Notes under the pieces: generated by a model
What the model was told of the DNA's origin: nothing
The model's input: the letters and a program-made list of their open reading frames with translations, nothing else
The model's database searches: none
Translations under genes and position numbers: made by a program
Assembly (NCBI GenBank): GCA_041659045.1
Contig: JBAZZB010000001.1
Coordinates: 6,111-70,110, forward strand
DNA from: Patescibacteria group bacterium
GTDB lineage: Bacteria > Patescibacteriota > Patescibacteriia > SG8-24 > DYFX01
Reading direction: 5' to 3'
Length of the DNA: 64,000 nt
Shown: piece by piece, positions 46,291-58,374 of the stretch
Numbering within the stretch: position 1 is the first letter of the stretch
Layout of the letters: every line of letters begins with the position of its first letter

Positions 46291-46384
46291 ACTCACCCCC
46301 TAGCCCCCTCTCTTTCAGAGAGGGGGAATCAGATCCGAATCCCTCCCCTGAAAGGGGAGGTGCCCGCAGGGCGGAGGGGTCTTA

Positions 46385-46417
46385 AAAACTCCCATGACGC
46401 GCGTCATGGGAGTTTTT
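46385..46417. terminator. bidirectional intrinsic terminator (last of three hairpins after thrS)
   Basis: aaaactcccatgacgcgcgtcatgggagttttt; preceded by two further GC hairpins 46297-46360. Confidence 0.75.
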
Positions 46418-46425
46418 GTTCTCGA

Positions 46426-47364
46426 TCATCGTCCAAACAGTCTGGCAAAGAAGCCAGGTTTTTTCGAGGTGCCGCTCCCTGGTTTCATGGCAGGCTTCGG
46501 TAGTGGCATACCTTCGCGAACTTCGACTTCTTCGTAATCCGGAGCGACTTTGCGAGCTGTATCGCGTGCGCCGGCGCGTTCGCTGCTGACACTCGCAAGC
46601 TGCTGCTCGTAGTCGGCAAGATTCTTTTGTGTCTCTTTGAGCTCGGCGCGGAGCTTACGCGCTTGCCACCAGCCGGCGGTTTCCAGCTCGCGGTCGAGGC
46701 GCGCTCTCTCCATCAGCTGAAAGCGGTAATCCTTAGCGTTAAAGACCTCGGGATTGAGCTCGCCGTTGGCAAGCATGATTTCAGCGTGTTTCGTGGCCGC
46801 CTCAAGTTCTTCGTCCGTATCGATGATCGTGTCCGTTTTCTTTGTGTCGTAGGATTCGGCGATCGAGCGGCGAACATCAGCTTCCTTGCGGGCGTCCTCG
46901 GTTCTCTGCTTTTCGGCAAGAGATTTCACGTACGATTCGTCCTCGCCTTGTTTGAACCAGGCTTCTTCTTTCTGGCTCGACTCCGGAGCCTCAGGCGTTG
47001 TCTCGACGCTAGCCGCGACAACCTTCGCAAGCTCTTCTTTGGTGAACGACTGTCGTTTTGCGCGCTTCACGCTCGGTTTCTTCTCTGCAACAACATCTTC
47101 CGTAATCGAAATTTCTTCGTACGGCTCGTTATCATTTGCAGGTACGCTCGGTTCTTTTCCTGCGTCTACGTCTTCGACCAAGTGTTCAGTGAGATCCTCG
47201 ATCTCTTCAACCTTCGGTGCCGTCGCTTTCTTGCGTGAGCGAGGTTTTTTTGCGGCAGCAACGGGTTTGTCCAAGTCGCTGACGTCGAAGCGATCGGTAA
47301 TATCATCATCTTTCGCTTCGGGGACGGCTTCAGGAGTCGGATTTTTGCGATATTCGCGAGCCAT
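46426..47364 (-). CDS. hypothetical acidic protein, IEDLT-motif family member 1
   Basis: start taken at MAREYRK; EEIEDLTEHLVED motif; C-terminal basic tail KKPGFFARLFGR. Confidence 0.5.
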   Translation of the reverse strand: MAREYRKNPTPEAVPEAKDDDITDRFDVSDLDKPVAAAKKPRSRKKATAPKVEEIEDLTEHLVEDVDAGKEPSVPANDNEPYEEISITEDVVAEKKPSVKRAKRQSFTKEELAKVVAASVETTPEAPESSQKEEAWFKQGEDESYVKSLAEKQRTEDARKEADVRRSIAESYDTKKTDTIIDTDEELEAATKHAEIMLANGELNPEVFNAKDYRFQLMERARLDRELETAGWWQARKLRAELKETQKNLADYEQQLASVSSERAGARDTARKVAPDYEEVEVREGMPLPKPAMKPGSGTSKKPGFFARLFGR

Positions 47365-47433
47365 AGGCGCTGCTATGTGGATGAAATCACTGTAAGTATA
47401 ACACAAAACCGCCCGAAGGCGGTTGTCGTGTGC

Positions 47434-47772
47434 TTAGGAAGCTTGGCGTTTTTTCTTATCAAGATCCTCGAGGATTTTCCGTTCCAAGGTGTCCGTATCC
47501 TCATCGGTTGGCGTGCGAACAGATTCTTTCTGAATGCCATACGACTCCGGTGTGCGAAGCTCCGGCGCGACAGCATCCGTCAGATCCTCGATCATGTCGT
47601 CCTCGAGCTTTGCAAGCTGGCTTTCGTAGCTGCGAAGCTTTTCTTTGAGGAAGTCATGCTCGGGAGCATCGGCCGGCATGCCGGCAAGCTCAGCCGCCGC
47701 TTTGCTGATCTCCTCGCGGAGAAGGTCGGCTTCGGATTTTGGCTGTTCGAGTGAGGGAGTTTCAAAGCTCAT
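47434..47772 (-). CDS. hypothetical acidic protein, IEDLT-motif family member 2
   Basis: ATG at MSFETPS downstream of TTGACA-17-TATTCT promoter; DMIEDLTDAV motif. Confidence 0.5.
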   Translation of the reverse strand: MSFETPSLEQPKSEADLLREEISKAAAELAGMPADAPEHDFLKEKLRSYESQLAKLEDDMIEDLTDAVAPELRTPESYGIQKESVRTPTDEDTDTLERKILEDLDKKKRQAS

Positions 47773-47826
47773 GGGAGTGTGATTATCACTTGCCAGAATA
47801 GCATAAAAATGGGAATTTGTCAACGC

Positions 47827-48726
47827 ATGAAAGCACTTCCGCGCATCATCGTCATCGTCGGTCCAACGGCTTCAGGGAAGTCTGCTTTAGCGCATCGTTT
47901 GGCAAAAGCGATCGGTGGAGAGATTGTATCTGCTGATTCACGCCTGCTCTATACGGGTATGAATATCGGCACGGCAAAACCATCGCTCTCTGAGCGAGAA
48001 GAAGTGCCGCATCATTTGATTGATGTGGTGTCTCCCTCAAAAACGCTGACGCTTTCAGAATATAAGCGCAAGGCCCTTCGCGCGATTCGCGATATCTTGA
48101 AACGCGGACGCGTACCGATCGTTGTCGGTGGTACCGGCCTCTACGTTCGTGCTCTCGTCGAGAATCTTGAAATACCGGAAGTGCCGCCAAACCCCGTATA
48201 CCGCGATTTTCTTAGAAAAAAAGGGGATGCGTGGATTTTGACGCAGGTTGGAAAACTCGACCCGGAGTACGCGAAACGTATTGGTCCAAACCCACGCTTT
48301 GCGACGCGTGCTCTTGAAGTTATGAAAGCGACGGGCAAACCGTTTAGCGCGTTGCAAGGAAAAGGACCTCAACTGTTTGACGCGCTTCTTCTTGGCTTGT
48401 CTCCAGGCACTCCGATACTCAAACAACGGATCTTGAAACGCGTCACGAAGATGTTTCGCGCAGGCTTAGAAAAAGAAGCGAGGGCGATCGCGGAAAAATA
48501 CGACGAGGCGCTGCCAAGCATGAGCGGAATCGGCTATCGCGAGCTTTGGCCGCACCTGCGCGGAGAGATTTCGCTCGCGGAAGCGAAAAAAACAATCGTA
48601 AGGAACACAGAACAGTACGCCAAGCGGCAAATGACGTGGTGGCGTGGCATGAAGGGGATCGAGTGGCACGTTCAACCTCAAACCGCCTTTCGTTCCGCTA
48701 AAAAATGGCTAATTTCAGCAAAATAA
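47827..48726 (+). CDS. miaA: tRNA dimethylallyltransferase
   Basis: P-loop GPTASGKS, ADSRLLY, typical MiaA length. Confidence 0.9.
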   Translation: MKALPRIIVIVGPTASGKSALAHRLAKAIGGEIVSADSRLLYTGMNIGTAKPSLSEREEVPHHLIDVVSPSKTLTLSEYKRKALRAIRDILKRGRVPIVVGGTGLYVRALVENLEIPEVPPNPVYRDFLRKKGDAWILTQVGKLDPEYAKRIGPNPRFATRALEVMKATGKPFSALQGKGPQLFDALLLGLSPGTPILKQRILKRVTKMFRAGLEKEARAIAEKYDEALPSMSGIGYRELWPHLRGEISLAEAKKTIVRNTEQYAKRQMTWWRGMKGIEWHVQPQTAFRSAKKWLISAK

Positions 48727-48795
48727 CAGTCTTCGGGCTTTTCAAAAGCCTTATTTTGTGGCATAATAAGCTCAGAATTATTAACGTCCCACCGT

Positions 48796-48966
48796 ATGGA
48801 ACCCATCATGGGCTACTGCGTGAAGTGCAAGGACAAGCGCGAAATCAAAGACGCGCAAGAGGTACAGATGCCCGCCAAGGGCGGCAAGACCCGCCCAGCG
48901 CTCAAGGGCGTCTGCCCGATCTGTGGAACTGGTATCTTCAAGATCCTGCCTTCCAAAGCGGCGTAA
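48796..48966 (+). CDS. small zinc-ribbon protein (56 aa; below the 60-aa ORF-track cutoff)
   Basis: CVKCK...17 aa...CPICG Cys4 pattern, Lys-rich; followed by strong terminator. Confidence 0.5.
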   Translation: MEPIMGYCVKCKDKREIKDAQEVQMPAKGGKTRPALKGVCPICGTGIFKILPSKAA

Positions 48967-49000
48967 GCCACGTCGGTCGCGACCGACGTGGTAAGCCGGA

Positions 49001-49025
49001 CTCCTCCCTCATGGGAGGAGTTTTT
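49001..49025 (+). terminator. intrinsic terminator
   Basis: ctcctccctcatgggaggag + ttttt. Confidence 0.75.
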
Positions 49026-49088
49026 ATTTATACACATGTGAATCTTGCCGCGCTCGCTTGCTGATGGTAAACTCCTTTTTTCGCCAGT

Positions 49089-49191
49089 GAGCCGCAGGGG
49101 ATTTTTCGCCGGTGCTACTTCTTACGCACCTGCGAAATCTCTCAGAGGGTCGGGCGCGCCGCGTCGTGGTCGACCAGTACCCCTGCGGCTC
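49089..49191 (+). ncRNA. candidate structured RNA (unknown family) enclosed by 12-bp helix, between two terminators
   Basis: gagccgcagggg (49089-49100) pairs with cccctgcggctc (49180-49191); internal hairpin ggtgc...gcacc; no protein-like ORF; strand uncertain. Confidence 0.25.
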
Positions 49192-49202
49192 CTTGGTGGA
49201 AA

Positions 49203-49228
49203 AGAAAAAGCCCCACGTGGGGCTTTTT
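49203..49228. terminator. bidirectional intrinsic terminator
   Basis: aaaaagccccacgtggggcttttt. Confidence 0.8.
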
Positions 49229-49232
49229 ACAA

Positions 49233-49721
49233 TCACTTCTTGCTGAACCAGCCTTTGATCCGACCCAACAAAGATGGCTTTGGCTTGTTGCTGCGAGCAA
49301 TCGTGTTATCCATCGGATAGACTTCATCAGCGCTTCGTACGCGAGCTTTCCGCGCTGCATCAGCCGTCAGCTCCTCAACGCGATCACTTTCGTCCATCAA
49401 GCGCGCTTCCTGCGTCATGTCCGGGATGGCATCCAGGTTTTTCCGAGCTTCTTTCATCATCGCCTCATCTCGAATGCGCCGCGCTTCGTGCGTCATGTCT
49501 TCGATCTCTTCCAAGTCACTCGTCTTCAGTTCGGTCTCCTGCTCTTCCTCGGGCTCCTCCTTCACGTGATCGGACAGGTCCTCGATTTCCTCGAGGTCGC
49601 TTTCTTTGAGTTGGATTTCTTCCGTGCCCTCGACCAGTTTTAAGTGGTTTTTCTTTTTTTCCGGTTTCGCGGCTTTTGGTTCGGGTGCGGGCATTGCCTC
49701 AGCGAAGTTGCGGCGGGGCAT
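49233..49721 (-). CDS. hypothetical acidic protein, IEDLT-motif family member 3
   Basis: two copies of motif (EEIEDLSDHVKEE, EEIEDMTHEARR); C-terminal basic tail KPSLLGRIKGWFSKK similar to member 1. Confidence 0.5.
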   Translation of the reverse strand: MPRRNFAEAMPAPEPKAAKPEKKKNHLKLVEGTEEIQLKESDLEEIEDLSDHVKEEPEEEQETELKTSDLEEIEDMTHEARRIRDEAMMKEARKNLDAIPDMTQEARLMDESDRVEELTADAARKARVRSADEVYPMDNTIARSNKPKPSLLGRIKGWFSKK

Positions 49722-49732
49722 AGGAGAAAAGG

Positions 49733-51268
49733 TTAAAGCTTCCCAAGTTTGGCTTCGAGAATCTCGCGGACAAGATCCGGTTTTGCTTTTCCTTTGGTTT
49801 CTTTCATGACCTGGCCGACCAGGAACATGATCGCGGCTTGCTTGCCGGCTTTGTAGTCACCAACCACTTTTTCGTTGGCGAGGATGATGTTGTCGCACGC
49901 GAGTTCGAGGTCGCCGACGTCGGAGACTTGCTCGAGGCCGCGCTCGGAAACGATCTGGGAAGGATCCTGGCCACTTTCGAGCATGGCACGCAGTACTTCT
50001 TGCGCCGCGGTCGAGTTGATCTTGCCGGCGTGGAGCAAGGTGAGGAATTCGGCAAAATTCTCCGGCGTAACCTTGGCAATGCGAATGTCCGTTTTGATTT
50101 CGGCCATGAGGCCGAGGAGTTTCGAGAGAAGCCAGCCGGAGACAAGTTTGGCGAACTTCGGCTTGACCGCATCCCACGTTTCTTTTTCGCCACTCGACGA
50201 GAGCCATTCTTGAAGTTCGGAGAACGTTTGTTCGGTGAAGTCGGCGAGACCGGGCGTTTCAACAATTTGCTTGGCGTCGGCAGGAGAGAGAGCATATTCC
50301 TCGCGGAAGCGCTGGCGCTTGGCTTCGGGAAGTTCCGGCATTGTTTGTCGTACGGTACGTTCGAGCTCAGCGAGTTCAAGCGGCGGCAGATCTGGTTCGG
50401 GGAAGTAGCGATAGTCGGCAGAATCTTCCTTTACGCGTTGTTCGACCGTAATCTGCTTGTCTTCATCCCAGCCGCGCGTTGTTGTGATCATGGGTGGCGT
50501 ACCGATCTCCCACAGCTTCGTTTGGCGCATGATCTCGTATTCGAGAGCGCGCTCGACGGCCTTGAAAGAGTTCAAGTTCTTCACTTCCGTTTTTGGGTTG
50601 AAGCGCGCGACCGATTCCTTCTCGATCGCCGGATCATCGATCACTTGGCGGAGGCTGACGTTGGCGTCGCAGCGCAGGTGTCCCTTTTCCATTTCAGCGT
50701 CGGAAACACCGAGCGTGCGCATGATGAGGCGCAGCTCGTGCAAGAAGGCTTTAGCTTCGGAAGCCGAGGCGAAGTCGGGTTCGGTGACGATTTCGGCGAG
50801 CGGCGTGCCAGCGCGGTTGAAGTCGACAAGCGAAGCGCGGCCGCCGTCGGCGTGCTGCAGCTTGGCGGCGTCTTCTTCAAGATGGAGGCGCGTGATGCCG
50901 ATCGTGAAGACCGTGCGCTCATTGCCCTTGGCGTAGGGATTCTCAAGCGTCATCGTGCCGGCGACGCCAACAGGTTTGTCGAATTGCGAAATTTGGTACC
51001 CCTTCGGCAAGTCGGGGTAGAAGTAGTTCTTGCGGTCGAATTTCGATTGCGGGGTGATGCGGCAGCCGATCGCGAGCGAGGCCAAAATACCGAAATGAAT
51101 AGCCTGTCGGTTCGCAACTGGAAGCGTGCCGGGGTGCCCCATGCAGATCGGGCAGACGGCGGTATTCGGCGGTGCGTCCTCGGCACGGTTATCGCAGCCG
51201 CAGAACATCTTCGATTTTGTTTTGAGCTGGACGTGGATTTCCAGCCCGATTACGGGCTCCAAAGTCAT
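49733..51268 (-). CDS. gatB: aspartyl/glutamyl-tRNA(Asn/Gln) amidotransferase subunit B
   Basis: GatB N-terminal GLEIHVQL...CGCDN motif and C-terminal YqeY-like domain. Confidence 0.93.
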   Translation of the reverse strand: MTLEPVIGLEIHVQLKTKSKMFCGCDNRAEDAPPNTAVCPICMGHPGTLPVANRQAIHFGILASLAIGCRITPQSKFDRKNYFYPDLPKGYQISQFDKPVGVAGTMTLENPYAKGNERTVFTIGITRLHLEEDAAKLQHADGGRASLVDFNRAGTPLAEIVTEPDFASASEAKAFLHELRLIMRTLGVSDAEMEKGHLRCDANVSLRQVIDDPAIEKESVARFNPKTEVKNLNSFKAVERALEYEIMRQTKLWEIGTPPMITTTRGWDEDKQITVEQRVKEDSADYRYFPEPDLPPLELAELERTVRQTMPELPEAKRQRFREEYALSPADAKQIVETPGLADFTEQTFSELQEWLSSSGEKETWDAVKPKFAKLVSGWLLSKLLGLMAEIKTDIRIAKVTPENFAEFLTLLHAGKINSTAAQEVLRAMLESGQDPSQIVSERGLEQVSDVGDLELACDNIILANEKVVGDYKAGKQAAIMFLVGQVMKETKGKAKPDLVREILEAKLGKL

Positions 51269-51316
51269 AGTATGCCTATCCTAGCAGGTGTTTACGCATA
51301 AAAAAAGGGGCCAGAG

Positions 51317-51832
51317 CTATGTCTGAACCCGGGCGGAAGCCGTCCTTCGTTCGGCGGCTTCGAAGTAGGAAGATGGCGTTCTTTGGAGGTAGATGCTGCC
51401 CAGGAGTCCGAGGAGGCTCACGGCGCAGCCAGCGGCGACCGGTGCGGCCGCGTTCGATGTCGAGCCGATCGCAGCGAGGACGGCGATCGCGCCGATGGCC
51501 GAGATCTTCAGAAAAGCGACGATGGCGCGCTCGAGGATGTAATACTGCCAGGGATGGGGACGCTTCCGTGCTGGCTCCAAGCCAGTGCCCAACGCGTGAT
51601 AGCCGGCGAAGATGAAGAAAACGGCCAGTGCGGCCTTTTCCAGCGCCATACCCGGGCGCGTCAGCGCGCCGGCCGCGAGCGGCACGAAGGAGACGACAGT
51701 GATCAACCCGAGCATGAGTGCCAGGACGGAACGACTGCAGCTCAGGCGGTGCATCAGACGCAGGGTAAGACGATCGAAGGCCGCCTGAATCTTCTCGTCG
51801 ACCCAGCGGAACGGAAAGAGCAGAAATCGCAT
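51317..51832 (-). CDS. small multi-TM membrane protein, paralogue A of tandem family
   Basis: ATG with GGAGGA RBS; own TTGACA-17-TATGTT promoter upstream (51859-51886); N-term motif F..R..D..IQAAFD shared with B and D. Confidence 0.5.
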   Translation of the reverse strand: MRFLLFPFRWVDEKIQAAFDRLTLRLMHRLSCSRSVLALMLGLITVVSFVPLAAGALTRPGMALEKAALAVFFIFAGYHALGTGLEPARKRPHPWQYYILERAIVAFLKISAIGAIAVLAAIGSTSNAAAPVAAGCAVSLLGLLGSIYLQRTPSSYFEAAERRTASARVQT

Positions 51833-51858
51833 GGAATCCTCCGGATGTTTGACGTGAA

Positions 51859-51886
51859 GAACATACGGGCACGCCCAGTCGTTGTC
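51859..51886 (-). promoter_or_regulatory. sigma70-like promoter for paralogue A
   Basis: minus-strand TTGACA (51886-51881) - 17 nt - TATGTT. Confidence 0.45.
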
Positions 51887-51891
51887 AAGAA

Positions 51892-51978
51892 AAAAGCCCA
51901 GACTTACGTCTGGGCAGGAGCGGTCTGCGGCGTTCCGACATGTTCCCGTGCCTTTTCGGCGGGCGGGTTCATGGGGGT
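51892..51978. repeat. 87-bp perfect direct repeat copy 1 (3' coding tail of paralogue B + terminator with stop codon in hairpin loop)
   Basis: identical to 52988-53074; contains gcccagacttacgtctgggc hairpin, minus-strand reads GCCCAGACG-TAA-GTCTGGGC-TTTTTT. Confidence 0.9.
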
Positions 51979-52455
51979 TTTGGCGAGGTAGAGAAGAAGG
52001 AGTGATGTGAAGCAGGCGAGCGAGAGGCCGAGCATGCACACCATGGTTTCTATCTTATAGCGGACATAGACCGCCGTAACCAGAAGCCACAGACTGACGG
52101 CGAGAAGCGCACACTTCATTAGTAGTGTCGCCGAAGCGAGTTGTCGCAGATCCGATCCCGAGAGGATAGATGTTGCTCTGGATTCTGCCTCGCGATCCTC
52201 TTCGTACTGGGCGACGTCGCTCCATGCGAATAAGGCCAGGAGAAACAAGACGAATGCGGCGCCGCCATAGATACGCGCTTGAACGAGCATCGCAAGCGAC
52301 GGACCGAAGAAGGTGAAGGTACAGCAGCATTGCAGTCTGTAGCGGATTACGGACTTCTTGAGCCCGAACTTCAACATGAGGAAGAAGCAGACGGAATCAA
52401 ACCGCTTCTGGATCGCGGCATCCGCGCGCTCTAGGAAAGAAACGACGTACTTCAC
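51904..52455 (-). CDS. small multi-TM membrane protein, paralogue B
   Basis: GTG start overlapping stop of paralogue C (GTGA); C-terminal 25 aa identical to paralogue D (...KTPMNPPAEKAREHVGTPQTAPAQT). Confidence 0.5.
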   Translation of the reverse strand: MKYVVSFLERADAAIQKRFDSVCFFLMLKFGLKKSVIRYRLQCCCTFTFFGPSLAMLVQARIYGGAAFVLFLLALFAWSDVAQYEEDREAESRATSILSGSDLRQLASATLLMKCALLAVSLWLLVTAVYVRYKIETMVCMLGLSLACFTSLLLLYLAKTPMNPPAEKAREHVGTPQTAPAQT

Positions 52456-52928
52456 GGAGCGTCTCCTTTCTCCGGATCTGGCCGGTATCCGAGCGGCGCA
52501 GCGCTCATCACGGCCATGCAGATGGCGACGAGCGCGATGCCGATCGAAAAGAGTGAAACGAGCGCGGCGTGCTCCGCAAATGAGAGGCCGATTTCTCGGA
52601 CGGTTGCCGGAGGTCGGACAAGCATCCAGACGATCTCGATCAGGAGAACGAGTCCGGCCGCTTTTGAGAACCTGCCCCACTTCGCAATGAGCGGATCGTC
52701 TTCTTGGTCGACGGCTTCGAGAAGCGCCGCCGGGAGCACGAAGATCCCGATCATGATGATCGACGTGATCACCGTGATCACCAGCGCTGGGTCAGCCGTA
52801 TCCGCCAGACATGCTCCGATCAAGAGCGCCAGACAGATGATACCATGGCCGAGATAGCAAAACAGCCGCATGCACGACGACTTCTTCCAGCCACGGCGCA
52901 TGAACGCATGAAGGATCAATTGCCCCAT
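52452..52928 (-). CDS. small multi-TM membrane protein, paralogue C (N-terminally shorter)
   Basis: shares FMRRGWKKSS-like segment with D (FMRRFGVRKS); 4 predicted TM helices. Confidence 0.45.
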   Translation of the reverse strand: MGQLILHAFMRRGWKKSSCMRLFCYLGHGIICLALLIGACLADTADPALVITVITSIIMIGIFVLPAALLEAVDQEDDPLIAKWGRFSKAAGLVLLIEIVWMLVRPPATVREIGLSFAEHAALVSLFSIGIALVAICMAVMSAAPLGYRPDPEKGDAP

Positions 52929-52987
52929 TGGTGCCTCCTTTGTGGGACGCTTGAACCTACCCCAGAAGAGTCATCTCGTCAAGATAT

Positions 52988-53074
52988 AAAAGCCCAGACT
53001 TACGTCTGGGCAGGAGCGGTCTGCGGCGTTCCGACATGTTCCCGTGCCTTTTCGGCGGGCGGGTTCATGGGGGT
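52988..53074. repeat. 87-bp perfect direct repeat copy 2 (3' coding tail of paralogue D + terminator)
   Basis: identical to 51892-51978. Confidence 0.9.
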
Positions 53075-53524
53075 CTTTTTCAGGTATTCGTGCGCCAGCG
53101 TGCAGATGAAGAAGTGTCCGATGCAAAGAGAGATACTGGCGGGCTTGTCCATGAGGGCGGTCACGGTCACGATCCCGATGATCGTACAAGCGATCTTGGC
53201 GACTCCGTCCGTGCCGATGTCGGCCACCGAGGCTGTTTGGATCGAGCCTTCGGCTTCATGATCCTTCCCAAGGTTGTTCGTTTGCTCGACCACGATGACA
53301 AGCGCAGAGAACGCGGCGATGATGCCGAAGATCAACGGGTGTCCGTACCACATGCCGAGCTGCACGAGCGCCGAAGCGAGCGTCACAGCCGCGACGGCGG
53401 CGAGCGCGTACCGAATCATCGACTTTCGTACGCCGAAGCGGCGCATGAAGAAGAAGCAGATCGAGTCGAAGCGCTTCTGAACCGCGGCGTCGAGTTTGGT
53501 AAAGAACGCGAAGAGAAAGCTCAT
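53000..53524 (-). CDS. small multi-TM membrane protein, paralogue D
   Basis: ATG (MSFLFAFF) with GAGGAGG RBS; TTGACA -35 element just upstream inside end of tmk; N-term motif KLDAAVQKRFDSICFF matches B. Confidence 0.5.
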   Translation of the reverse strand: MSFLFAFFTKLDAAVQKRFDSICFFFMRRFGVRKSMIRYALAAVAAVTLASALVQLGMWYGHPLIFGIIAAFSALVIVVEQTNNLGKDHEAEGSIQTASVADIGTDGVAKIACTIIGIVTVTALMDKPASISLCIGHFFICTLAHEYLKKTPMNPPAEKAREHVGTPQTAPAQT

Positions 53525-53574
53525 CAGGACCTCCTCGTAAGACATCAGAACAAAAACACGCCTCGACGTTGTTG

Positions 53575-54291
53575 TCAAGACGTGGTGGGTGCAAGTTGCA
53601 GGGCGCGTTCGACGTGCGGCCAGACGAGACCATGACAGTCTTCGATTGAAGGCAGATTACCCTCGGGGGTTATGCAGTCGATCAGGACGTGATTGGGAAA
53701 CTGGTTGGCAAGCTCGCGGTACGCGATCTCGACGTTTTCTTGGTAGGCGCGGTCGCGTTCGTGCATATCTTTTTCCTGGCCGGCGGTGTAGGCACGCGCT
53801 TCCTTTTTTGCCACAAGCGTATCGCGTAGGTCAGCGGGAACCGACATGATGAGCGTAAGGTTCGGGCGGGGGAGCATCATGCGGACAAATTCCAGGTCTT
53901 CAACCCAGAGGCGAAAGGTCGTCCGCTCTTTTGGATCGGCAAAGAAGGCGCTTTCATACGCCATAGCCGAAGCGACAAAACGGTCTGCGATGACGATTTT
54001 TCCCGCGTTGAGCCAGCCTTGAATTTTTTCTTTCGTGGTCTGACGATCGCGGGCGTAGAGCGCAGCCACGACGTATGCGCCAACTTCGTCGCGCGTGCCG
54101 AACTCGCCACGTAGGTACATGTCAATGATTTTTGCCGACGGCGCGCCGTGCTGCGGAAAGCTGATCGTTTCGACCTCGCGGCCGAGCGCACGCAAACGAT
54201 CGACCAGCAATTTCATCTGGGCACTTTTGCCGGAACCGTCACCGCCTTCAAAATTGAGGAAGAATCCACGCATGCTAGGAACCGTCTTCAA
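53575..54291 (-). CDS. tmk: thymidylate kinase
   Basis: P-loop FEGGDGSGKS, DRY-like region, LID; overlaps thyX end by 17 nt. Confidence 0.88.
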   Translation of the reverse strand: MKTVPSMRGFFLNFEGGDGSGKSAQMKLLVDRLRALGREVETISFPQHGAPSAKIIDMYLRGEFGTRDEVGAYVVAALYARDRQTTKEKIQGWLNAGKIVIADRFVASAMAYESAFFADPKERTTFRLWVEDLEFVRMMLPRPNLTLIMSVPADLRDTLVAKKEARAYTAGQEKDMHERDRAYQENVEIAYRELANQFPNHVLIDCITPEGNLPSIEDCHGLVWPHVERALQLAPTTS

Positions 54292-55900
54292 GCGCGGCTT
54301 CTTTCACGCGCTGCTTGGCTTCGGAATCGGCTCGACTCCAGAAGTAGTCGCCGTGGTCGGCGAACTTCATCGCCTCGGCGCGCCAGGATGAACGGGCCGC
54401 GACGGCTTTGTGCATCAGCTGCGCGACGCGACGATACGAAGGATGGCCTTGCGGCGTGGTGCGCAGCTCGATGAGGTGCATGAGCGCGCGGTCGTTGATG
54501 CCGAGCGTCCAGCGGATGAGGGAGCCGTGCAGGGTGGCGTAGGGAGCTTGCTCGGGGAACTCCGGCGCCAAGCGCTCGTACAGCGCGACGGACTTTTCTC
54601 GGCAGGCTTCTACCCGCCCCGCGAAACCGGCGTTTTTGATGTCTTCTGGTACGACGAAACCGAGTATCGGCGTGAACTTCTGGCGATCCTGACTGGCCAT
54701 GCGATGCCGCTCCAAGTCCTTGTAGGTGCCGTAGTCGACCAGCATGTCGAACGTATACGGATAGCCGCTCTCCATGGCTCGGCCCGGGCGGTCACGTCGG
54801 CTCTTGCGATTGCCGACGTACGTGGCAATGATTGCCCCGCGCTTCTCATCGGAAAGAGAGTGCACCACTTCGCGAATTTGCGCGAGCGGATGATTCAGGT
54901 GCGGATAGAGCATGAGCGCGAGCGTCAGGTCGTCGGACTCACGCTCATTCGTGGCGCGGTCCATGAGTGCGACCGTCTGAGCTTCTTGCGGCGCGATGCC
55001 GGCGAACAGTGCCTGTGCCAGCGCGCGCACGGCGTTCCTGGTTTCAATGACGTAGTCGTTTGCCTTTGCGCGTTTCACGTAGCGCGGAATGATCTTGTCG
55101 AGTGCGGTTTGCGTGCGCGCCGCAATGTCGCGCACTTCGGGAATGGCAGAGGAGTAGCAATGGGTCATGACCGTCTGGAAGAAACGGCCGTTGCCGAAAA
55201 TGCCGACGTTCGTGAGTGTCGAGAGCGGCAAGAGCGCGCGGAGCGCGTCGCAGGCTTTGGAACGGATGTCGGCTTGGTAGGTGGTGCGGAAAGCCTTCTG
55301 GAGCTTCTCATCTTTCAGCTCGGCATAACGCTCCTTCGCGCCATCGCCGTTTACATCGTATTCGGCGATGTCGAGCGGTTTGAGCTGTTCGTAATACGCC
55401 TTCATGGGCGGGATCAGCTCGCAATAGGTCGAAAAAATAAAATCCATCGTTTCGACATACGCTGCACCATGCGACGAAGCCATGATGGCCGGATCGCGGT
55501 AGTAACGGTAGTGGCCCTCAGCATTTTTCTGATCGTAAAAAACGTACCGCGTCGACTGTTCGATGGGGGAGCCGCCGATACGGCGATCTTCGATCTCCTT
55601 CGTAGAAAGCGTCGAAATGTTTTCAAAAGAAACATGCGCGCCTTCGAGTTCGCCAACCGAGTCGTCGCCGTAGGCGATCAATACGCGCTCAATAAGGTCT
55701 CCGGCCTTCTTCGCGTCAATCGCGCCTTCGCGAATGAATTCCTTGAGCAGTGTTTCACGGAAACCGCCCGGGGCGCGGCTGTAGCGCGCGTACACCGCCC
55801 CTGTCATGCCGTCCAAACCCTTCACAGCAAAAATATCGTCTTCGGTGCTGGTGACGTACGGGGCAAGCAGGATTTTTTCTTCGTCGGAAAATTTCGGCAT
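54275..55900 (-). CDS. thyX: flavin-dependent thymidylate synthase ThyX, tandem-domain (541 aa) form
   Basis: N-half has ...EQSTRYV, C-half has RHRMAS...; two ThyX-like halves in one polypeptide. Confidence 0.7.
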   Translation of the reverse strand: MPKFSDEEKILLAPYVTSTEDDIFAVKGLDGMTGAVYARYSRAPGGFRETLLKEFIREGAIDAKKAGDLIERVLIAYGDDSVGELEGAHVSFENISTLSTKEIEDRRIGGSPIEQSTRYVFYDQKNAEGHYRYYRDPAIMASSHGAAYVETMDFIFSTYCELIPPMKAYYEQLKPLDIAEYDVNGDGAKERYAELKDEKLQKAFRTTYQADIRSKACDALRALLPLSTLTNVGIFGNGRFFQTVMTHCYSSAIPEVRDIAARTQTALDKIIPRYVKRAKANDYVIETRNAVRALAQALFAGIAPQEAQTVALMDRATNERESDDLTLALMLYPHLNHPLAQIREVVHSLSDEKRGAIIATYVGNRKSRRDRPGRAMESGYPYTFDMLVDYGTYKDLERHRMASQDRQKFTPILGFVVPEDIKNAGFAGRVEACREKSVALYERLAPEFPEQAPYATLHGSLIRWTLGINDRALMHLIELRTTPQGHPSYRRVAQLMHKAVAARSSWRAEAMKFADHGDYFWSRADSEAKQRVKEAALEDGS

Positions 55901-55969
55901 AGGCAGTATCAGGATTTGTACCTGCAGTACATCACTTCGCTCACAGCCGTAGAAGTGGACAAGCCTGTG

Positions 55970-55995
55970 GATAAGAAAAAGGGGCCAAAGCCCCT
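55970..55995 (-). terminator. intrinsic terminator immediately after dut stop
   Basis: minus strand AGGGGCTTTGGCCCCT + TTTTTCTT. Confidence 0.6.
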
Positions 55996-56421
55996 TTATC
56001 CGGTAGTTCCGAACCCGCCACGCGTCTTGTCTGTAAGGGCTGGGCCCTCGTCCCAGACTGCGCGGTCGACCCGGACGAAACCAGCCTGGCAGACGCGGTC
56101 GCCCTTCTTGATTTCGACCGGTGCCTCGGTGAAGTTCATGACTCGAAGCTTGAGCTCATCCTCAGGGCCGCAGTAGTCCTGATCGATGATACCGATGCCA
56201 TGCGGCAGCTGGACGCCCTTTTTCGGAGTCGAGGAGCGCGAAGCGACAAGGAGCATGTAGCCCTCGGGAATGCCAAAAACGAGACCGGTCGGCAGGTCGG
56301 CCATGGCTTTTGGCGCGAGGGTGATGTCTTCGACGCAGACGAGGTCGAAGCAGACGGCACCGGGCGTTTTATATTCAGGCAGCGCGACGTCGGGGCGGGT
56401 TTTTGTGATTCTGACTTTCAT
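55996..56421 (-). CDS. dut: dUTP diphosphatase
   Basis: dUTPase motifs (AVCFDL, ASRSS, GIGIIDQDYCG, GGFGTTG). Confidence 0.88.
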   Translation of the reverse strand: MKVRITKTRPDVALPEYKTPGAVCFDLVCVEDITLAPKAMADLPTGLVFGIPEGYMLLVASRSSTPKKGVQLPHGIGIIDQDYCGPEDELKLRVMNFTEAPVEIKKGDRVCQAGFVRVDRAVWDEGPALTDKTRGGFGTTG

Positions 56422-56432
56422 CGCGTTTTTTT

Positions 56433-56511
56433 GTCATCCCGAGCGCAGTCGAGGGATCTATTCTTCGAGCCAATAGATCCCTCCACTTCGCTGCGCTTCG
56501 GTCGGGATGAC
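56433..56511. repeat. about 80-nt imperfect inverted repeat (long hairpin) in kinase-dut intergenic region
   Basis: gtcatcccga/tcgggatgac, gcgcag/ctgcgc, agggatctatt/aatagatccct arms around cttcgagcc loop. Confidence 0.7.
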
Positions 56512-56513
56512 AA

Positions 56514-57119
56514 TTAAGGACTGGTGTGCAATTTATTCCGATGCGGGTGCGGGTGGTCGAAGTCGCCGGCTTTGATGTATTCGAGGATCGACCGCACGGA
56601 CGCGTAGTACTCCTCGATCGATCCGGTATTGTCGAGCATGAAGCCAGCGGAACGGCCGATTTCCGGAATGTCCTTTTCGGTCGACAGGTTTTCTTCTTCT
56701 TTGAATGTTTCAAGCGACATTTCGGATTCTCCGACTTTCTCGCCGCGCCCGCGCGCGCGCTGCCAGCGGATCTCAACGGGTGCCGTGATGTAGAGAAGGT
56801 GGAAACCGGGAAGATCTTTCAATGCTTCCACATCGCCCCAGCGACGAATGCCGTCGATGACGATGAGTGGGGTTGCGGCATTTTTCGCATCGCCGGCGAT
56901 CACTTGTGCAAACAAGTTTTGGCCAAAGGCTTCGCGAAGCGTGACCGACATCTTTGTCTGGTTTTCGCGCGTCTGTGGGATGTACAAACGGTCGAGTACG
57001 TCGTTCAGAATCTTGCTGAAGCGGAACGTTTGCGCGCCGTATTTTTCAACCAAATACTGGGCGGCGGTGCCTTTACCTCCGACTTTCTCGCCGACGAGGC
57101 CGATGATGATCTTGTTCAT
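56514..57119 (-). CDS. P-loop nucleoside/nucleotide kinase-like protein (CoaE/dNMP-kinase-like fold)
   Basis: start at MNKIIIGLVGEKVGGKGT (Walker A); overlaps deaminase stop by 4 nt (ATGA). Confidence 0.55.
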   Translation of the reverse strand: MNKIIIGLVGEKVGGKGTAAQYLVEKYGAQTFRFSKILNDVLDRLYIPQTRENQTKMSVTLREAFGQNLFAQVIAGDAKNAATPLIVIDGIRRWGDVEALKDLPGFHLLYITAPVEIRWQRARGRGEKVGESEMSLETFKEEENLSTEKDIPEIGRSAGFMLDNTGSIEEYYASVRSILEYIKAGDFDHPHPHRNKLHTSP

Positions 57120-57634
57120 GCTTTGGAGACGTAATTTTCGAGCGGCGCGGTAAAGGCCTGCGCCAGGCGTTCGGTCCATTCACGCGAAGGCTGGTAGGAG
57201 TCGAGCGTGACGCCGGCTTCATGGAGCGCGGCGACGACGGCGGGGGAGCGATACTCGGCGCCGGCCAGGATGCGTTTCACGCCGGCGACCGTCAGCGCTT
57301 TGAAACAGTGGTAGCAAGGCGAGTGCGTCGTGTAGAGCGTCGAACCGACCGTGCTGCCCGCGCCCATGACGGCGGCTTGGAGTACGCAGTTCTCTTCAGC
57401 ATGCACCGTACGGATGCAGTGATTGTCCTCCATAAGGTGTCCGGCCGGGCCGTCGCAGTGGGGCATGCCGGGCGGCGCGCCGTTGTAACCCGTCGCCACG
57501 ATGCGGCGGTCTTTCACCAGCACCGCGCCAACCTGGAGGCGATTGCAGGTGCCGCGCGTCGCCACGATTTTGGCGATGCCCATGAAGTAGTCGTCCCAGG
57601 ACGGGCGCTGGAGAGAAGGAGTCATAGTGTTCAA
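57116..57634 (-). CDS. dCMP deaminase (cytidine/deoxycytidylate deaminase family)
   Basis: zinc motifs HAEENC and PCYHC. Confidence 0.88.
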   Translation of the reverse strand: MNTMTPSLQRPSWDDYFMGIAKIVATRGTCNRLQVGAVLVKDRRIVATGYNGAPPGMPHCDGPAGHLMEDNHCIRTVHAEENCVLQAAVMGAGSTVGSTLYTTHSPCYHCFKALTVAGVKRILAGAEYRSPAVVAALHEAGVTLDSYQPSREWTERLAQAFTAPLENYVSKA

Positions 57635-57702
57635 ACCTTACCGTCTTGAGCGAGGTGCCGCAAGAGACGAAAAACCGACCCCTTTCGGGATCGGTTTCGT
57701 CC

Positions 57703-58374
57703 TTAGATCGTGCGGATGGCCGGACCCATGGTGGTCGCGACCGTGACGTTCTTCAGGTAGACGCCCTTCGAAGAGGACGGCTTGATTTTGCGAACGGCTT
57801 CGAGCAGCGTTTCGTAGTTCTCGGCGAGCGCCTTGGCGTCGAACGAGACTTTGCCGATGACGGTGTGGACGATGCCGTAGTCGTCGCTCTTGAAGGCAAC
57901 TTTGCCCTTCTTGAGTTCCGAGATCATCTTCGTCACGTTCGTGCTGACGGTTTCAGACTTCGGGTTCGGCATGAGACCCTTCGGACCGAGGACTTTTGCG
58001 ACCTTGGCCATCTTCGGCATCATGTCCGGCGTTGCGACCGCGAGGTCCCACTCGAACTTACCGGTCCTGGTGATTTCGGCGAGCGTTTCTTCCGTACCGA
58101 TTTCATCGGCGCCGGCTTCCTTCGCTTCCTTCTCCTTATCAGCGGAGACGAAGGCGATGATCTTTTTCGTTTTGCCGCTGCCGTTCGGGAGCGAGACGGT
58201 GCCGCGGACCTGCTGGTCGGACTTCTTCGGGTCGATGCCGAGGCGGAGGTGGACTTCCACGGTGGCGTCGAACTTCGACGGCGAGGTCTGCTTGGCCAGT
58301 TCCATCGCTTCGGCGGTCGAATACGTTTTCTTCGAGTCGACGAGCGCGGCGGCGGCCTTATACTTCTTTCCCAT
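57703..58374 (-). CDS. rplA: 50S ribosomal protein L1
   Basis: uL1 signature; start taken at MGKKYKAAA. Confidence 0.93.
   Translation of the reverse strand: MGKKYKAAAALVDSKKTYSTAEAMELAKQTSPSKFDATVEVHLRLGIDPKKSDQQVRGTVSLPNGSGKTKKIIAFVSADKEKEAKEAGADEIGTEETLAEITRTGKFEWDLAVATPDMMPKMAKVAKVLGPKGLMPNPKSETVSTNVTKMISELKKGKVAFKSDDYGIVHTVIGKVSFDAKALAENYETLLEAVRKIKPSSSKGVYLKNVTVATTMGPAIRTI

What the first reader, a model, noticed from the sequence alone, without database searches (positions are those of the whole stretch)
51317..53578. Tandem array of four paralogous small multi-TM membrane protein genes with own promoters and translational coupling
Four consecutive minus-strand genes (A 171 aa, B 183 aa, C 158 aa, D 174 aa) are each predicted to have about 4 TM helices. 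A, B and D share an N-terminal amphipathic motif (F-x-x-[RK]-x-D-x-x-[IV]-Q-x-x-F-D...R-x-G...S-x-I-R-Y). C shares the FMRR-G/F-W/G-K/R-KS segment but lacks the first 20 residues. B starts with GTG overlapping C's TGA (GTGA coupling). A and D each have a TTGACA-based promoter and strong Shine-Dalgarno sequences. Arrays of diverged small membrane paralogues wedged between core genes (gatB and tmk) are typical of immunity-protein or holin/antiholin-like cassettes and of lineage-specific transporters. The family has no recognisable motif.
Basis: seen in the sequence. Interest (0 to 1): 0.65.

Follow-up and report, generated by a model that had tools for sequence, protein, structure and literature searches.

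The report
Expanded uncharacterised small membrane-protein gene array
Four neighbouring genes in a Patescibacteria genome are a local expansion of a conserved four-helix membrane protein family that no searched database describes; relatives carry one or two copies between the same two housekeeping genes, some phages carry it too, and its function is still unknown.

Summary
The four minus-strand ORFs are real. D is 53000-53524, C is 52452-52928, B is 51904-52455 and A is 51317-51832. All four show coding signal in frame.

D and B are clear paralogues (blastp E 1.7e-35). A is a divergent full-length member (51 bits against a family HMM built without window sequences; 0 of 3000 hydropathy-preserving shuffles reach that score). 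C is a probable member lacking the N-terminal helix and the tail motif (18 bits, shuffle p about 0.001-0.004).

The family matches nothing in Pfam, NCBIfam, PHROGs or PADLOC and has no significant PDB match. It has at least 164 cluster representatives and a sharp signature: an N-terminal D-x3-Q-x3-D helix, MRRxGxxKS, a D-x3-E loop, and a Y-L-x2-T-P-x2-P-P tail. All conserved parts are predicted to face the cytoplasm.

In ten Patescibacteria loci the order is dut-thyX-tmk-X-gatB, with one copy (seven loci), two (two loci) or four (this window only). Distant members lie in phage contigs, two of them between a dUTPase and a deoxyribosyltransferase-like gene.

The identical 3' ends of B and D point to recent recombination. 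An immunity or holin cassette is not supported. A link to deoxynucleotide salvage is a guess from gene context only.

The parts
53557..53584 (-). Hairpin plus T-run that overlaps the tmk stop codon.
   Evidence: The terminator scan finds an 11-bp stem. Relatives have a comparable hairpin containing TTGAC at the tmk stop codon (L001, L003, L007, L009), and three of them (L001, L003, L009) have TTGACn-17-TACGTT there; read by eye from the sequences printed.
53000..53524 (-). Gene D (174 aa, ATG start, GAGGAGG Shine-Dalgarno). It is the orthologue of the single-copy tmk-gatB membrane protein of relatives and has the full family signature.
   Evidence: 68% identity to P0002. Family HMM score 145.8 bits. 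AlphaFold2 pLDDT 82.5. dN/dS 0.29 against the L001 orthologue.
52988..53086 (.). Copy 2 of the 99-nt direct repeat: the last 25 or so codons of D, the stop codon and the terminator hairpin.
   Evidence: 95% identity over 99 nt. Codon-level comparison.
52992..53011 (-). Intrinsic terminator after D (GCCCAGAC-gtaa-GTCTGGGC plus a T-run). Its 5' arm is made of the last codons of D.
52954..52982 (-). Candidate promoter for the C-B unit (TTGACG-17-TAGGTT).
   Evidence: Read from the sequence. It scores 8 of 12, below the threshold of the scan, so it is inferred only.
52452..52928 (-). Gene C (158 aa, ATG start, AAAGGAGG Shine-Dalgarno). It has four hydrophobic helices and keeps FMRRGWKKS, but lacks the N-terminal D-x3-Q-x3-D helix and the TPxxPP tail. 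It is a probable highly diverged paralogue with no homologue elsewhere.
51904..52455 (-). Gene B (183 aa, GTG start overlapping C's TGA). It has the full family signature and is a second-copy-type paralogue.
   Evidence: it is P0007. Family HMM score 137.2 bits. It groups with P0012 and with L003 copy 2 in the tree.
51892..51990 (.). Copy 1 of the 99-nt direct repeat: the last 25 or so codons of B, the stop codon and the terminator hairpin.
51896..51915 (-). Intrinsic terminator after B, identical to the one after D.
51860..51888 (-). Promoter-like site for A (TTGACA-17-TATGTT, 10 of 12 matches).
51317..51832 (-). Gene A (171 aa, ATG start, GGAGGA Shine-Dalgarno). It is a divergent full-length family member that keeps D12, Q16, D20, M27, K110, Y147, T151 and P152 (D numbering) and has lost G31, K34 and the PP of the tail. 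It has no homologue elsewhere.
51300..51330 (-). Imperfect hairpin (GGGTTCAGA...TCTGGCCCC) plus T7. It spans A's stop codon and stands in the position of the family's terminator in front of gatB.
   Evidence: Read from the sequence. The scan did not report it, because of stem mismatches.
51278..51286 (-). Conserved extended -10 element for gatB (TGCTAGGAT), 9 nt before the gatB ATG. It marks the constant right-hand junction of the array.
   Evidence: Conserved as CCTG(C/T)TAG(G/A)(A/G)T...TACTATG in five related loci.

Best explanation
SHOWN
- The locus is a lineage-specific expansion, to four copies, of a conserved small inner-membrane protein family that none of the searched libraries describes. 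I call the family X.
- X has an N-terminal amphipathic helix, four transmembrane helices and a proline-rich tail, with both ends predicted to lie in the cytoplasm.
- In related Patescibacteria, X is a single gene (sometimes two) with its own terminator, sitting between tmk and gatB at the end of a dCMP deaminase-kinase-dut-thyX-tmk block.
- D is the orthologue of that single gene and is under purifying selection.
- B belongs to an older second-copy lineage.
- A and C occur only in this genome and are strongly diverged.
- The last 25 codons plus the terminator of B and D are nearly identical in DNA, while the rest of the two genes is about as different as unrelated DNA.

INFERRED
- The array grew, or was homogenised, by recombination at the conserved 3' tail/terminator. 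That same spot is the constant right-hand breakpoint of divergent tmk-X alleles among relatives.
- The working part of X is a cytoplasm-facing charged surface held on a variable four-helix anchor. It would be built from the N-helix (D12, Q16, D20, R28, K34), the TM2-TM3 loop (D88, E92, D102, K110) and the juxtamembrane tail (Y147, T151, P152, P155, P156). Such a surface could bind a partner protein or a metal-phosphate ligand at the inner leaflet.
- Because X sits next to dut, thyX and tmk in Patescibacteria, and between a dUTPase and a deoxyribosyltransferase-like gene in two phage contigs, its most likely role is a membrane-tethered accessory of pyrimidine deoxynucleotide salvage. This last step is weakly supported.
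- C is translationally coupled to B and lacks both cytoplasmic motifs, so it may be a partner subunit of B.
For: ORFs are real genes
- Coding signal in frame 0 for all four ORFs.
- Only these four ORFs in the 64-kb window hit a family HMM built without window sequences: E 7e-44, 4e-40, 1.3e-14 and 6.7e-5.

Family
- 18 close relatives, all from Patescibacteria metagenome-assembled genomes or from unnamed metagenomic contigs.
- 164 representatives at E<=1e-3, all listed ones 107-203 aa.
- No Pfam, NCBIfam, PHROG or PADLOC match.
- No PDB fold match; best Foldseek E 0.87.

Signature and topology
- In a 155-sequence alignment, D12, Q16, Y147, T151 and P156 are 96-99% conserved.
- K+R averages 15.9 in the N-terminus, the TM2-TM3 loop and the tail together, against 2.3 in the two other loops.
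- AlphaFold2 model: pLDDT 82.5, pTM 0.71.
- Synonymous codon variation within TPMNPPAEK across loci shows that selection acts at the protein level.

Synteny and copy number
- dut-thyX-tmk-X(n)-gatB in 10 distinct loci, with n = 1, 1, 1, 1, 1, 1, 1, 2, 2 and 4.

Selection
- dN/dS for D against the L001 orthologue is 0.29. The neighbours give 0.034 (GatB), 0.058 (Dut), 0.074 (Tmk) and 0.075 (ThyX).

Recombination
- B versus D, codons 150-174: 97-100% nucleotide identity and 92-100% third-position identity, against 17-58% third-position identity elsewhere.
- The 99-nt repeat.
- Mosaic identity profiles against L003 and L009, with the breakpoint at the X/gatB junction.

Phage contexts
- L020 and L021 carry an integrase, and L020 also a tail protein; in both, the dUTPase and X lie a few small ORFs apart and are followed by a DUF7768 gene, which in L020 also hits a nucleoside 2-deoxyribosyltransferase PHROG.
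- L016 and L022 are phage-like blocks carrying replication or recombination genes.
Against: - No expression data exist for any of the four genes.
- A and C have no homologues at all, so selection on them cannot be measured. They may be decaying copies.
- C's family membership rests on an 18-bit score.
- The link to nucleotide metabolism may be mere gene order. X has terminators on both sides and, in relatives, its own promoter. gatB, on the other side, is unrelated to nucleotides. Only two related phage contigs show the dUTPase/deoxyribosyltransferase-like neighbourhood, and the other two phage-like contigs do not.
- tmk and X being replaced together can be explained by adjacency alone.
- The neighbour-joining tree used to call B an 'older copy' is rough.
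- The model coordinates could not be inspected, so clustering of the conserved residues in space is assumed, not shown.
Confidence: 0.55

Rival explanations
1. X is a small transporter or channel subunit, for example for nucleosides, deoxynucleotides or an ion, that works as an oligomer. The paralogues would form hetero-oligomers or give different specificities.
For: - It is a four-transmembrane protein of about 170 aa, like several small oligomeric transporters (established knowledge).
- Patescibacteria depend on scavenged nucleotides (established knowledge).
- It sits next to salvage genes.
- The best PDB sequence hit of the family profile is the N-terminal TM1-3 region of the nucleoside transporter CNT3, E 0.008.
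- C and B are translationally coupled.
Against: - No polar or charged residue is conserved within the transmembrane helices, and the transmembrane region is the least conserved part.
- The CNT3 hit does not survive hydropathy-preserving shuffles once multiple testing is considered (p about 0.005 per sequence), and it is inconsistent between subfamily HMMs.
- A de novo designed membrane protein scores nearly as well.
- TM1-3 of CNT3 are not needed for transport (PMC7440666).
- No fold match to any transporter.
Confidence: 0.15
2. This is the first reader's view: an immunity, holin/antiholin or phage-exclusion cassette. X would be a conflict gene, carried by phages and kept by hosts, and the array of diverged copies would reflect an arms race.
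For: - Distant members lie in phage contigs.
- X evolves 4-9 times faster than its neighbours by dN/dS.
- The tmk-X segment exists as very divergent alleles on similar backbones.
- Copy number varies.
Against: - No PADLOC, PHROG or Pfam holin or immunity match.
- No toxin, lysin or secretion genes are nearby.
- The position is fixed in core synteny even in a distant subgroup (26.9% identity to D, L018).
- dN/dS is well below 1, even in the variable middle part (0.36).
- The conserved parts face the cytoplasm, whereas phage-contact surfaces would face outward.
Confidence: 0.1
3. Only D, and perhaps B, is functional. A and C are decaying leftovers of duplication or recombination that still read as open frames, so the 'array' has no collective function.
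For: - A and C have no homologue in 5.8 billion proteins.
- A has lost G31, K34, R38/Y39 and the PP of the tail. C has lost the whole N-helix and the tail motif.
- The closest relative manages with one copy.
Against: - Both keep intact ORFs of 158-171 codons, strong Shine-Dalgarno sequences, coding-type codon usage with GC3 of 0.72-0.77, and four hydrophobic helices.
- A has a good promoter.
- C is translationally coupled to B.
- Streamlined Patescibacteria genomes rarely keep dead genes (established knowledge).
Confidence: 0.25
4. X is a small membrane enzyme or lipid-facing housekeeping protein unrelated to nucleotides. It would resemble DgkA in having a surface helix plus a transmembrane bundle with a cytoplasmic acidic site, and its position by tmk would be historical accident.
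For: - The invariant D, Q, D, D, E, D, K, Y and T residues on the cytoplasmic face look more like a catalytic or metal-binding site than a scaffold.
- X is its own transcription unit.
- Gene order in these genomes mixes unrelated functions: secE-nusG-rplK ... tmk-X-gatB.
Against: - No sequence or fold similarity to DgkA, PAP2, CDP-alcohol transferases or any other enzyme family.
- The recurrence beside a dUTPase in phage contigs would then be coincidence.
Confidence: 0.2

Closest known systems
CvpA (colicin V production protein, PF02674), encoded in the cvpA-purF operon of enterobacteria
   Same: A small (about 160 aa) four-transmembrane inner-membrane protein of unclear function, encoded directly beside nucleotide-biosynthesis genes (my own knowledge).
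   Different: No sequence similarity: no Pfam hit for any of 63 family members. X also has its own N-helix and TPxxPP tail signature.
DgkA-type small membrane kinases
   Same: The architecture is similar in principle: an N-terminal amphipathic surface helix followed by a short transmembrane bundle, with conserved acidic and basic residues at the cytoplasmic interface (my own knowledge, compared).
   Different: DgkA has three transmembrane helices and about 120 aa. No sequence or Foldseek match was found. No catalytic activity is known for X.
Holin/antiholin (CidA/LrgA-type) and bacteriocin-immunity gene cassettes
   Same: Small multi-transmembrane proteins, sometimes in tandem with overlapping genes. 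Some X members are phage-borne.
   Different: No family match. No lysin or toxin partner. X is single-copy in conserved core synteny and under purifying selection.
N-terminal TM1-IH1-TM3 module of eukaryotic concentrative nucleoside transporters (SLC28A3/CNT3; PDB 6KSW, 8TZ1)
   Same: It is the best PDB sequence hit (E 0.008). It shares a similar pre-TM1 basic motif (RRYDTVCGFCRKHKTTLRH against KRFDSICFFFMRRFGVRKSMIRY) and the order helix, TM, TM, loop, TM. Both are tied to nucleoside salvage.
   Different: The score is largely explained by hydropathy. There is no Foldseek match. The CNT module is an accessory part of a large transporter and is not itself a transporter (PMC7440666).
Unnamed viral protein A0A345MMT6 in BFVD (154 aa)
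   Same: The only fold match of note: Foldseek probability 0.99, TM-score 0.57/0.62 over 157 columns. It fits the presence of the family in phages.
   Different: E-value is only 0.15 and identity 10%. No name or host was available, and its sequence could not be retrieved to test for the signature.

Membership tests
X family (unnamed tmk-gatB four-transmembrane family, defined here) | N-terminal helix with D-x3-Q-x3-D (D12, Q16, D20) | tested here: met
   Present in D, B and A. Absent from C, which starts about 22 residues later. D12 is 98% and Q16 99% conserved in 155 sequences.
X family (unnamed tmk-gatB four-transmembrane family, defined here) | Juxtamembrane M-R-R-x-G-x-x-K-S before TM1 | tested here: met
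   D has FMRRFGVRKS, B has LMLKFGLKKS and C has FMRRGWKKS. It is degenerate in A (LMHRLSCSRS).
X family (unnamed tmk-gatB four-transmembrane family, defined here) | C-terminal Y-L-x2-T-P-x2-P-P directly after TM4 | tested here: inconclusive
   D and B have it in full (YLKKTPMNPP, YLAKTPMNPP). A keeps YLQRTP but has SSYF in place of xxPP. C has only a loose APLGYRPDPEK.
X family (unnamed tmk-gatB four-transmembrane family, defined here) | Significant score against a family HMM built without window sequences | tested here: met
   D 145.8, B 137.2 and A 51.2 bits, with 0 of 3000 shuffles reaching these scores. C scores 18.3 bits, reached by 4-11 of 3000 shuffles, and E 6.7e-5 among all window ORFs.
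X family (unnamed tmk-gatB four-transmembrane family, defined here) | Four transmembrane helices with both ends inside the cell | tested here: met
   AlphaFold2 helices at 34-60, 63-93, 107-123 and 129-150. Positive-inside count of 15.9 against 2.3. Hydropathy of A-D. No dedicated topology predictor was available.
Holin/antiholin (LrgA/CidA and phage holin families) | Match to a holin or antiholin profile (Pfam or PHROGs) | tested here: not met
   No such hit for A-D or for 63 family members.
Holin/antiholin (LrgA/CidA and phage holin families) | Adjacent endolysin or murein hydrolase gene | tested here: not met
   The flanks are tmk and gatB. The same holds in ten related loci.
Bacteriocin or toxin immunity cassette | Cognate toxin, bacteriocin or export genes in the neighbourhood | tested here: not met
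   None lies between dut and the genes downstream of gatB, in the window or in relatives.
Known anti-phage defence systems (PADLOC) | Match to a defence-system protein model | tested here: not met
   No match for A-D, P0113 or P0077.
Concentrative nucleoside transporter (SLC28) N-terminal module | Sequence similarity beyond what the hydropathy pattern gives | tested here: not met
   E 0.008. However, 9 of 2000 block-shuffled decoys reach the score, and subfamily HMMs A5 and A6 give no signal.
Concentrative nucleoside transporter (SLC28) N-terminal module | Fold match to CNT3 structures | tested here: not met
   6KSW and 8TZ1 are not among the Foldseek PDB matches listed; the best match overall has E 0.87.
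Secondary transporters in general | Conserved polar or charged substrate-binding residues inside transmembrane helices | tested here: not met
   Columns 40-80 and 111-146 have low information and no conserved polar residue.

The most novel reading that the evidence does not exclude
X is an unrecognised membrane component of pyrimidine deoxynucleotide salvage shared by Patescibacteria and phages. For example, it could tether the dut-thyX-tmk enzymes to the membrane or link them to uptake. Its genes would behave as exchangeable cassettes that recombine at a conserved 3' tail/terminator, producing divergent tmk-X alleles and, in this genome, a four-gene array.
Probability: 0.15. Interest if true: 0.7.

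Novelty: new variant of a known kind. Interest (0 to 1): 0.4.

Why it matters
Patescibacteria have tiny genomes, cannot make nucleotides de novo, and carry many conserved genes of unknown function.

- **A handle for annotation.** This family sits at a fixed place beside the thymidylate genes, reappears in phage nucleotide-metabolism modules and has a sharp cytoplasmic signature. It is a concrete candidate for the missing membrane side of nucleotide scavenging. Even if that guess is wrong, the family is a well-defined domain of unknown function that the curated libraries searched here lack.
- **A small case study in gene-family turnover.** The locus shows how a conserved 3' coding tail plus terminator can act as a recombination anchor, producing copy-number change and allele replacement in streamlined genomes.
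- **Limits.** The tandem array itself is an ordinary lineage-specific expansion.

Tried and rejected
**Known families**
- Pfam, NCBIfam, PHROGs and PADLOC scans of A-D and of 63 family members gave only scattered chance hits.

**Fold searches**
- Foldseek against PDB found nothing (best E 0.87).
- Foldseek against BFVD gave one unnamed hit.

**CNT3 similarity**
- The E 0.008 hit was rejected as evidence of homology after the block-shuffle and subfamily-HMM tests.

**Homologues of C and A**
- Each search returned only the query itself.

**Viral, plasmid and metagenome collections**
- Five IMG/VR scans with the A2, A4, A5, A6 and A7 alignments found no relative.
- tblastn of P0113, P0077, P0148, P0088, P0134 and P0111 against INPHARED phages, and of P0077 against plasmids, found no match.
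- The broad alignments A3 and A8 were too diverse for the locus finder.
- The single metagenome scan returned one 1-kb fragment.

**Hosts of the phage contigs**
- They could not be assigned from tail-protein or exonuclease matches.

**Other checks**
- No conserved small partner ORF is shared between the two phage groups.
- A by-eye HAD-like DLDGTL motif in the ORF upstream of X in L021 got no Pfam support.
- Cluster look-ups gave a taxon name only for P0042, Candidatus Magasanikbacteria.
- Rfam found nothing in 46000-58000.
- Literature searches found no description of the family.

Full report
**1. What is in the sequence**

On the minus strand between tmk (53575-54291) and gatB (49733-51268) lie four ORFs (flanks confirmed by Pfam):
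- D, 53000-53524: ATG start, 174 aa.
- C, 52452-52928: ATG start, 158 aa.
- B, 51904-52455: GTG start, 183 aa.
- A, 51317-51832: ATG start, 171 aa.

Each is preceded by a Shine-Dalgarno sequence. B's GTG overlaps C's TGA (GTGA).

All four have coding-type codon usage in frame 0 only. Values are 0.31-0.48 bits per codon, against 0.48 for tmk and 0.58 for gatB, and GC3 is 0.68-0.79.

The consensus scans find these transcription signals:
- A hairpin plus T-run over the tmk stop codon (53584-53557).
- Identical terminators after D (53011-52992) and after B (51915-51896).
- A TTGACA-17-TATGTT promoter for A (51888-51860).

A weaker TTGACG-17-TAGGTT precedes C; I read this by eye.

Three relatives (L001, L003, L009) have TTGACn-17-TACGTT there, but in this window the -10 is TTTTGT.

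The likely transcription units are therefore D, C-B and A.

**2. Are they paralogues?**

- B and D are clearly related (blastp E 1.7e-35, 38% identity).
- A is weak in pairwise comparison (E 0.008 against D). It is a clear member once profiles are used: hhalign gives 96.9% probability and E 1.6e-10 over 154 columns. Against an HMM of 150 family representatives built without any window sequence it scores 51.2 bits, and none of 3000 hydropathy-preserving block shuffles reaches that score.
- C is borderline. It matches over FMRRGWKKS plus TM1 (hhalign 80% probability) and scores 18.3 bits, reached by 11 of 3000 and 4 of 3000 shuffles.
- Among all ORFs of at least 60 aa in the 64-kb window, the family HMM hits only these four, with E 7e-44, 4e-40, 1.3e-14 and 6.7e-5.

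I take C as a probable paralogue (about 75%) that has lost the N-terminal helix and the tail motif. A and C have no homologue other than themselves in 5.8 billion proteins.

**3. The family**

D has 18 close relatives. The named ones are all from Patescibacteria metagenome-assembled genomes; this window carries locus tags WC866_00270 to WC866_00285.

A profile search of 1.84 billion cluster representatives finds 164 proteins at E<=1e-3. All those listed are 107-203 aa.

No member matches Pfam, NCBIfam, PHROGs or PADLOC.

An alignment of 155 members shows a sharp signature, given here in D numbering:
- D12 (98%), Q16 (99%), D20 (88%).
- M27, R28, G31, K34, R38.
- D88, E92, D102, K110.
- Y147 (98%), T151 (96%), P152, P155, P156 (99%).

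The transmembrane segments and the two short loops are poorly conserved.

The AlphaFold2 model of D has pLDDT 82.5 and pTM 0.71. It shows a long N-terminal helix (2-30) and four transmembrane-length helices.

Lysine plus arginine average 15.9 in the N-terminus, the TM2-TM3 loop and the tail together, against 2.3 in the other two loops. This gives an N-in, C-in topology, so all conserved residues face the cytoplasm.

Codons for TPMNPPAEK differ at synonymous sites between loci, so the tail is conserved as protein and not as DNA.

The last codons of the gene form the 5' arm of its own terminator. The stem changes between loci but stays paired.

**4. Genomic context**

In ten distinct Patescibacteria loci the order is dut-thyX-tmk-X(n)-gatB on one strand. 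Copy numbers are:
- n = 1 in seven loci.
- n = 2 in two loci (L003 and L013).
- n = 4 only in this window.

In the loci held far enough upstream, a dCMP deaminase and a kinase precede this block.

A distant subgroup (26.9% identity to D, low-GC genomes) keeps the arrangement with one extra UPF0259 membrane gene.

D is the orthologue of the single-copy gene: 68% identity to P0002 on a complete 1.17-Mb genome.

B groups with P0012 and with the second copy of L003. A sits on a long branch. This comes from a rough neighbour-joining tree.

Between the window and L001, dN/dS values are:
- GatB 0.034.
- Dut 0.058.
- Tmk 0.074.
- ThyX 0.075.
- D 0.29 overall (0.36 in the variable middle, 0.15-0.2 at the two ends).

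D is therefore constrained, but it evolves much faster than its neighbours.

**5. Phage members**

Four distant members lie in phage or phage-like contigs.
- L020 (67-kb contig) and L021 (109-kb contig) both carry an integrase; L020 also carries a tail protein and a T4-type RNA ligase. In both, X lies two or three small ORFs after a dUTPase. A DUF7768 gene follows, after one further small ORF in L020; the L020 copy also hits the nucleoside 2-deoxyribosyltransferase PHROG.
- L016 and L022 (GC 70-73%) are blocks of small co-directional genes. L016 has an HNH endonuclease, GroES, an AAA ATPase and an exonuclease; L022 has a serine recombinase.

No member was found in IMG/VR, INPHARED or PLSDB. 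The best fold match in BFVD is one unnamed 154-aa viral protein with TM-score about 0.6.

**6. How the array arose**

B and D are 97-100% identical in DNA over codons 150-174 and the terminator. Third codon positions there are 92-100% identical, against 17-58% in the rest of the genes. In the equally conserved N-terminal motif, only 11 of 20 identical residues use the same codon. That pattern indicates recent recombination or gene conversion, not selection.

The upstream region of A resembles that of D (TCTTGACAAC...GGCGTG...TGTTC...GGAGG).

Sliding-window comparisons with relatives show mosaicism:
- Against L003, thyX is 86-100% identical in DNA. Identity drops to 54-65% in tmk and 41-48% in D, then returns to 83-91% in gatB.
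- Against L009, the whole dut-thyX-tmk-X stretch is divergent (29-71%) between flanks of about 82-89%.

The right-hand breakpoint is always the X tail, terminator and gatB promoter. I infer that this conserved junction acts as a recombination anchor. It would explain both allele replacement and the addition or homogenisation of cassettes in this genome.

**7. Function**

Nothing tested here shows what X does.

The pattern of invariant charged and polar residues on the cytoplasmic face of a variable anchor argues for a docking or ligand-binding surface. It argues against a classical transporter, because no polar residue is conserved within the transmembrane helices.

The neighbourhood in Patescibacteria and in one phage lineage points weakly to pyrimidine deoxynucleotide salvage. 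I give that specific link about 30%. The reasons for caution are:
- X is its own transcription unit.
- gatB, on the other side, is unrelated to nucleotides.
- Only two related phage contigs show the nucleotide-metabolism neighbourhood.

The best PDB sequence hit was the N-terminal TM1-3 region of the nucleoside transporter CNT3 (E 0.008). I reject it as evidence of homology for these reasons:
- Block-shuffled decoys reach the score at p about 0.005 per sequence.
- Three of five subfamily HMMs give little or no signal.
- A designed membrane protein scores almost as well.
- There is no fold match.

In CNT3 itself, those helices are dispensable for transport (PMC7440666).

**8. Verdict**

The immunity or holin reading is not supported.

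The locus is an ordinary kind of event, a local expansion of a membrane-protein gene. It affects a protein family that none of the searched libraries describes but that is well defined, has a conserved place in Patescibacteria genomes and reaches into phages.

Interest is moderate. It would rise if the link to nucleotide salvage, or the cassette-exchange mechanism, were confirmed.

Noticed in passing
window 53000-56421 and 49733-51330, compared with L001, L003 and L009: The dut-thyX-tmk-X stretch exists as very divergent alleles on otherwise similar backbones. Against L003, thyX is 86-100% identical in DNA but tmk is 54-65% and D 41-48%. Against L009, the whole stretch is 29-71% identical while both flanks are about 82-89%. 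The right-hand breakpoint is always at the X/gatB junction.
   Followed up: partly
window 51268-51300 (upstream of gatB): gatB has no Shine-Dalgarno sequence. A conserved extended -10 (TGCTAGGAT) ends 9 nt before its ATG, and the motif CCTG(C/T)TAG(G/A)(A/G)T...TACTATG is kept in five related loci. This suggests a leaderless or near-leaderless gatB mRNA that starts right after the X terminator.
   Followed up: partly
window 54275-55900: ThyX is 541 aa with two separate Thy1 (PF02511) matches, about twice the usual size, as if two ThyX domains were fused. The same length (502-564 aa) is seen in the relatives. Its 3' end overlaps the tmk start by 17 nt.
   Followed up: no
window 53557-53584, and the tmk-X intergenic regions of L001, L003, L007 and L009: The tmk stop codon lies inside a hairpin whose 5' arm reads TTGAC, in this window and in these four relatives. 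In L001, L003 and L009 the same TTGAC is also the -35 of a TTGACn-17-TACGTT promoter-like site, so a terminator and a promoter appear to overlap.
   Followed up: partly
L020 5880-8090 and L021 6767-9298: Two related temperate-phage contigs carry a compact module: dUTPase, small ORFs (DUF4031 in L020; in L021 an ORF with a HAD-like DLDGTL motif seen by eye only), the X homologue, and a DUF7768 gene (in L020 also a nucleoside 2-deoxyribosyltransferase PHROG hit). Their hosts are unknown.
   Followed up: partly
L018 3416-4186 and L017 355-1122: In a distant Patescibacteria subgroup, an additional UPF0259 (YciC-like) membrane protein gene sits between tmk and X. The tmk-gatB gap therefore seems to collect membrane-protein genes.
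   Followed up: no
window 49233-49721: The gene downstream of gatB encodes a 162-aa Glu/Lys-rich protein with no Pfam match. The gene at this position varies in length (131-247 aa) in the relatives and also lacks any family assignment.
   Followed up: no
window 56526-57649, compared with L003 3094-4214: This stretch upstream of dut is 95% identical in DNA to L003, much higher than gatB (83-91%). This is further evidence of recent exchange between these lineages.
   Followed up: no
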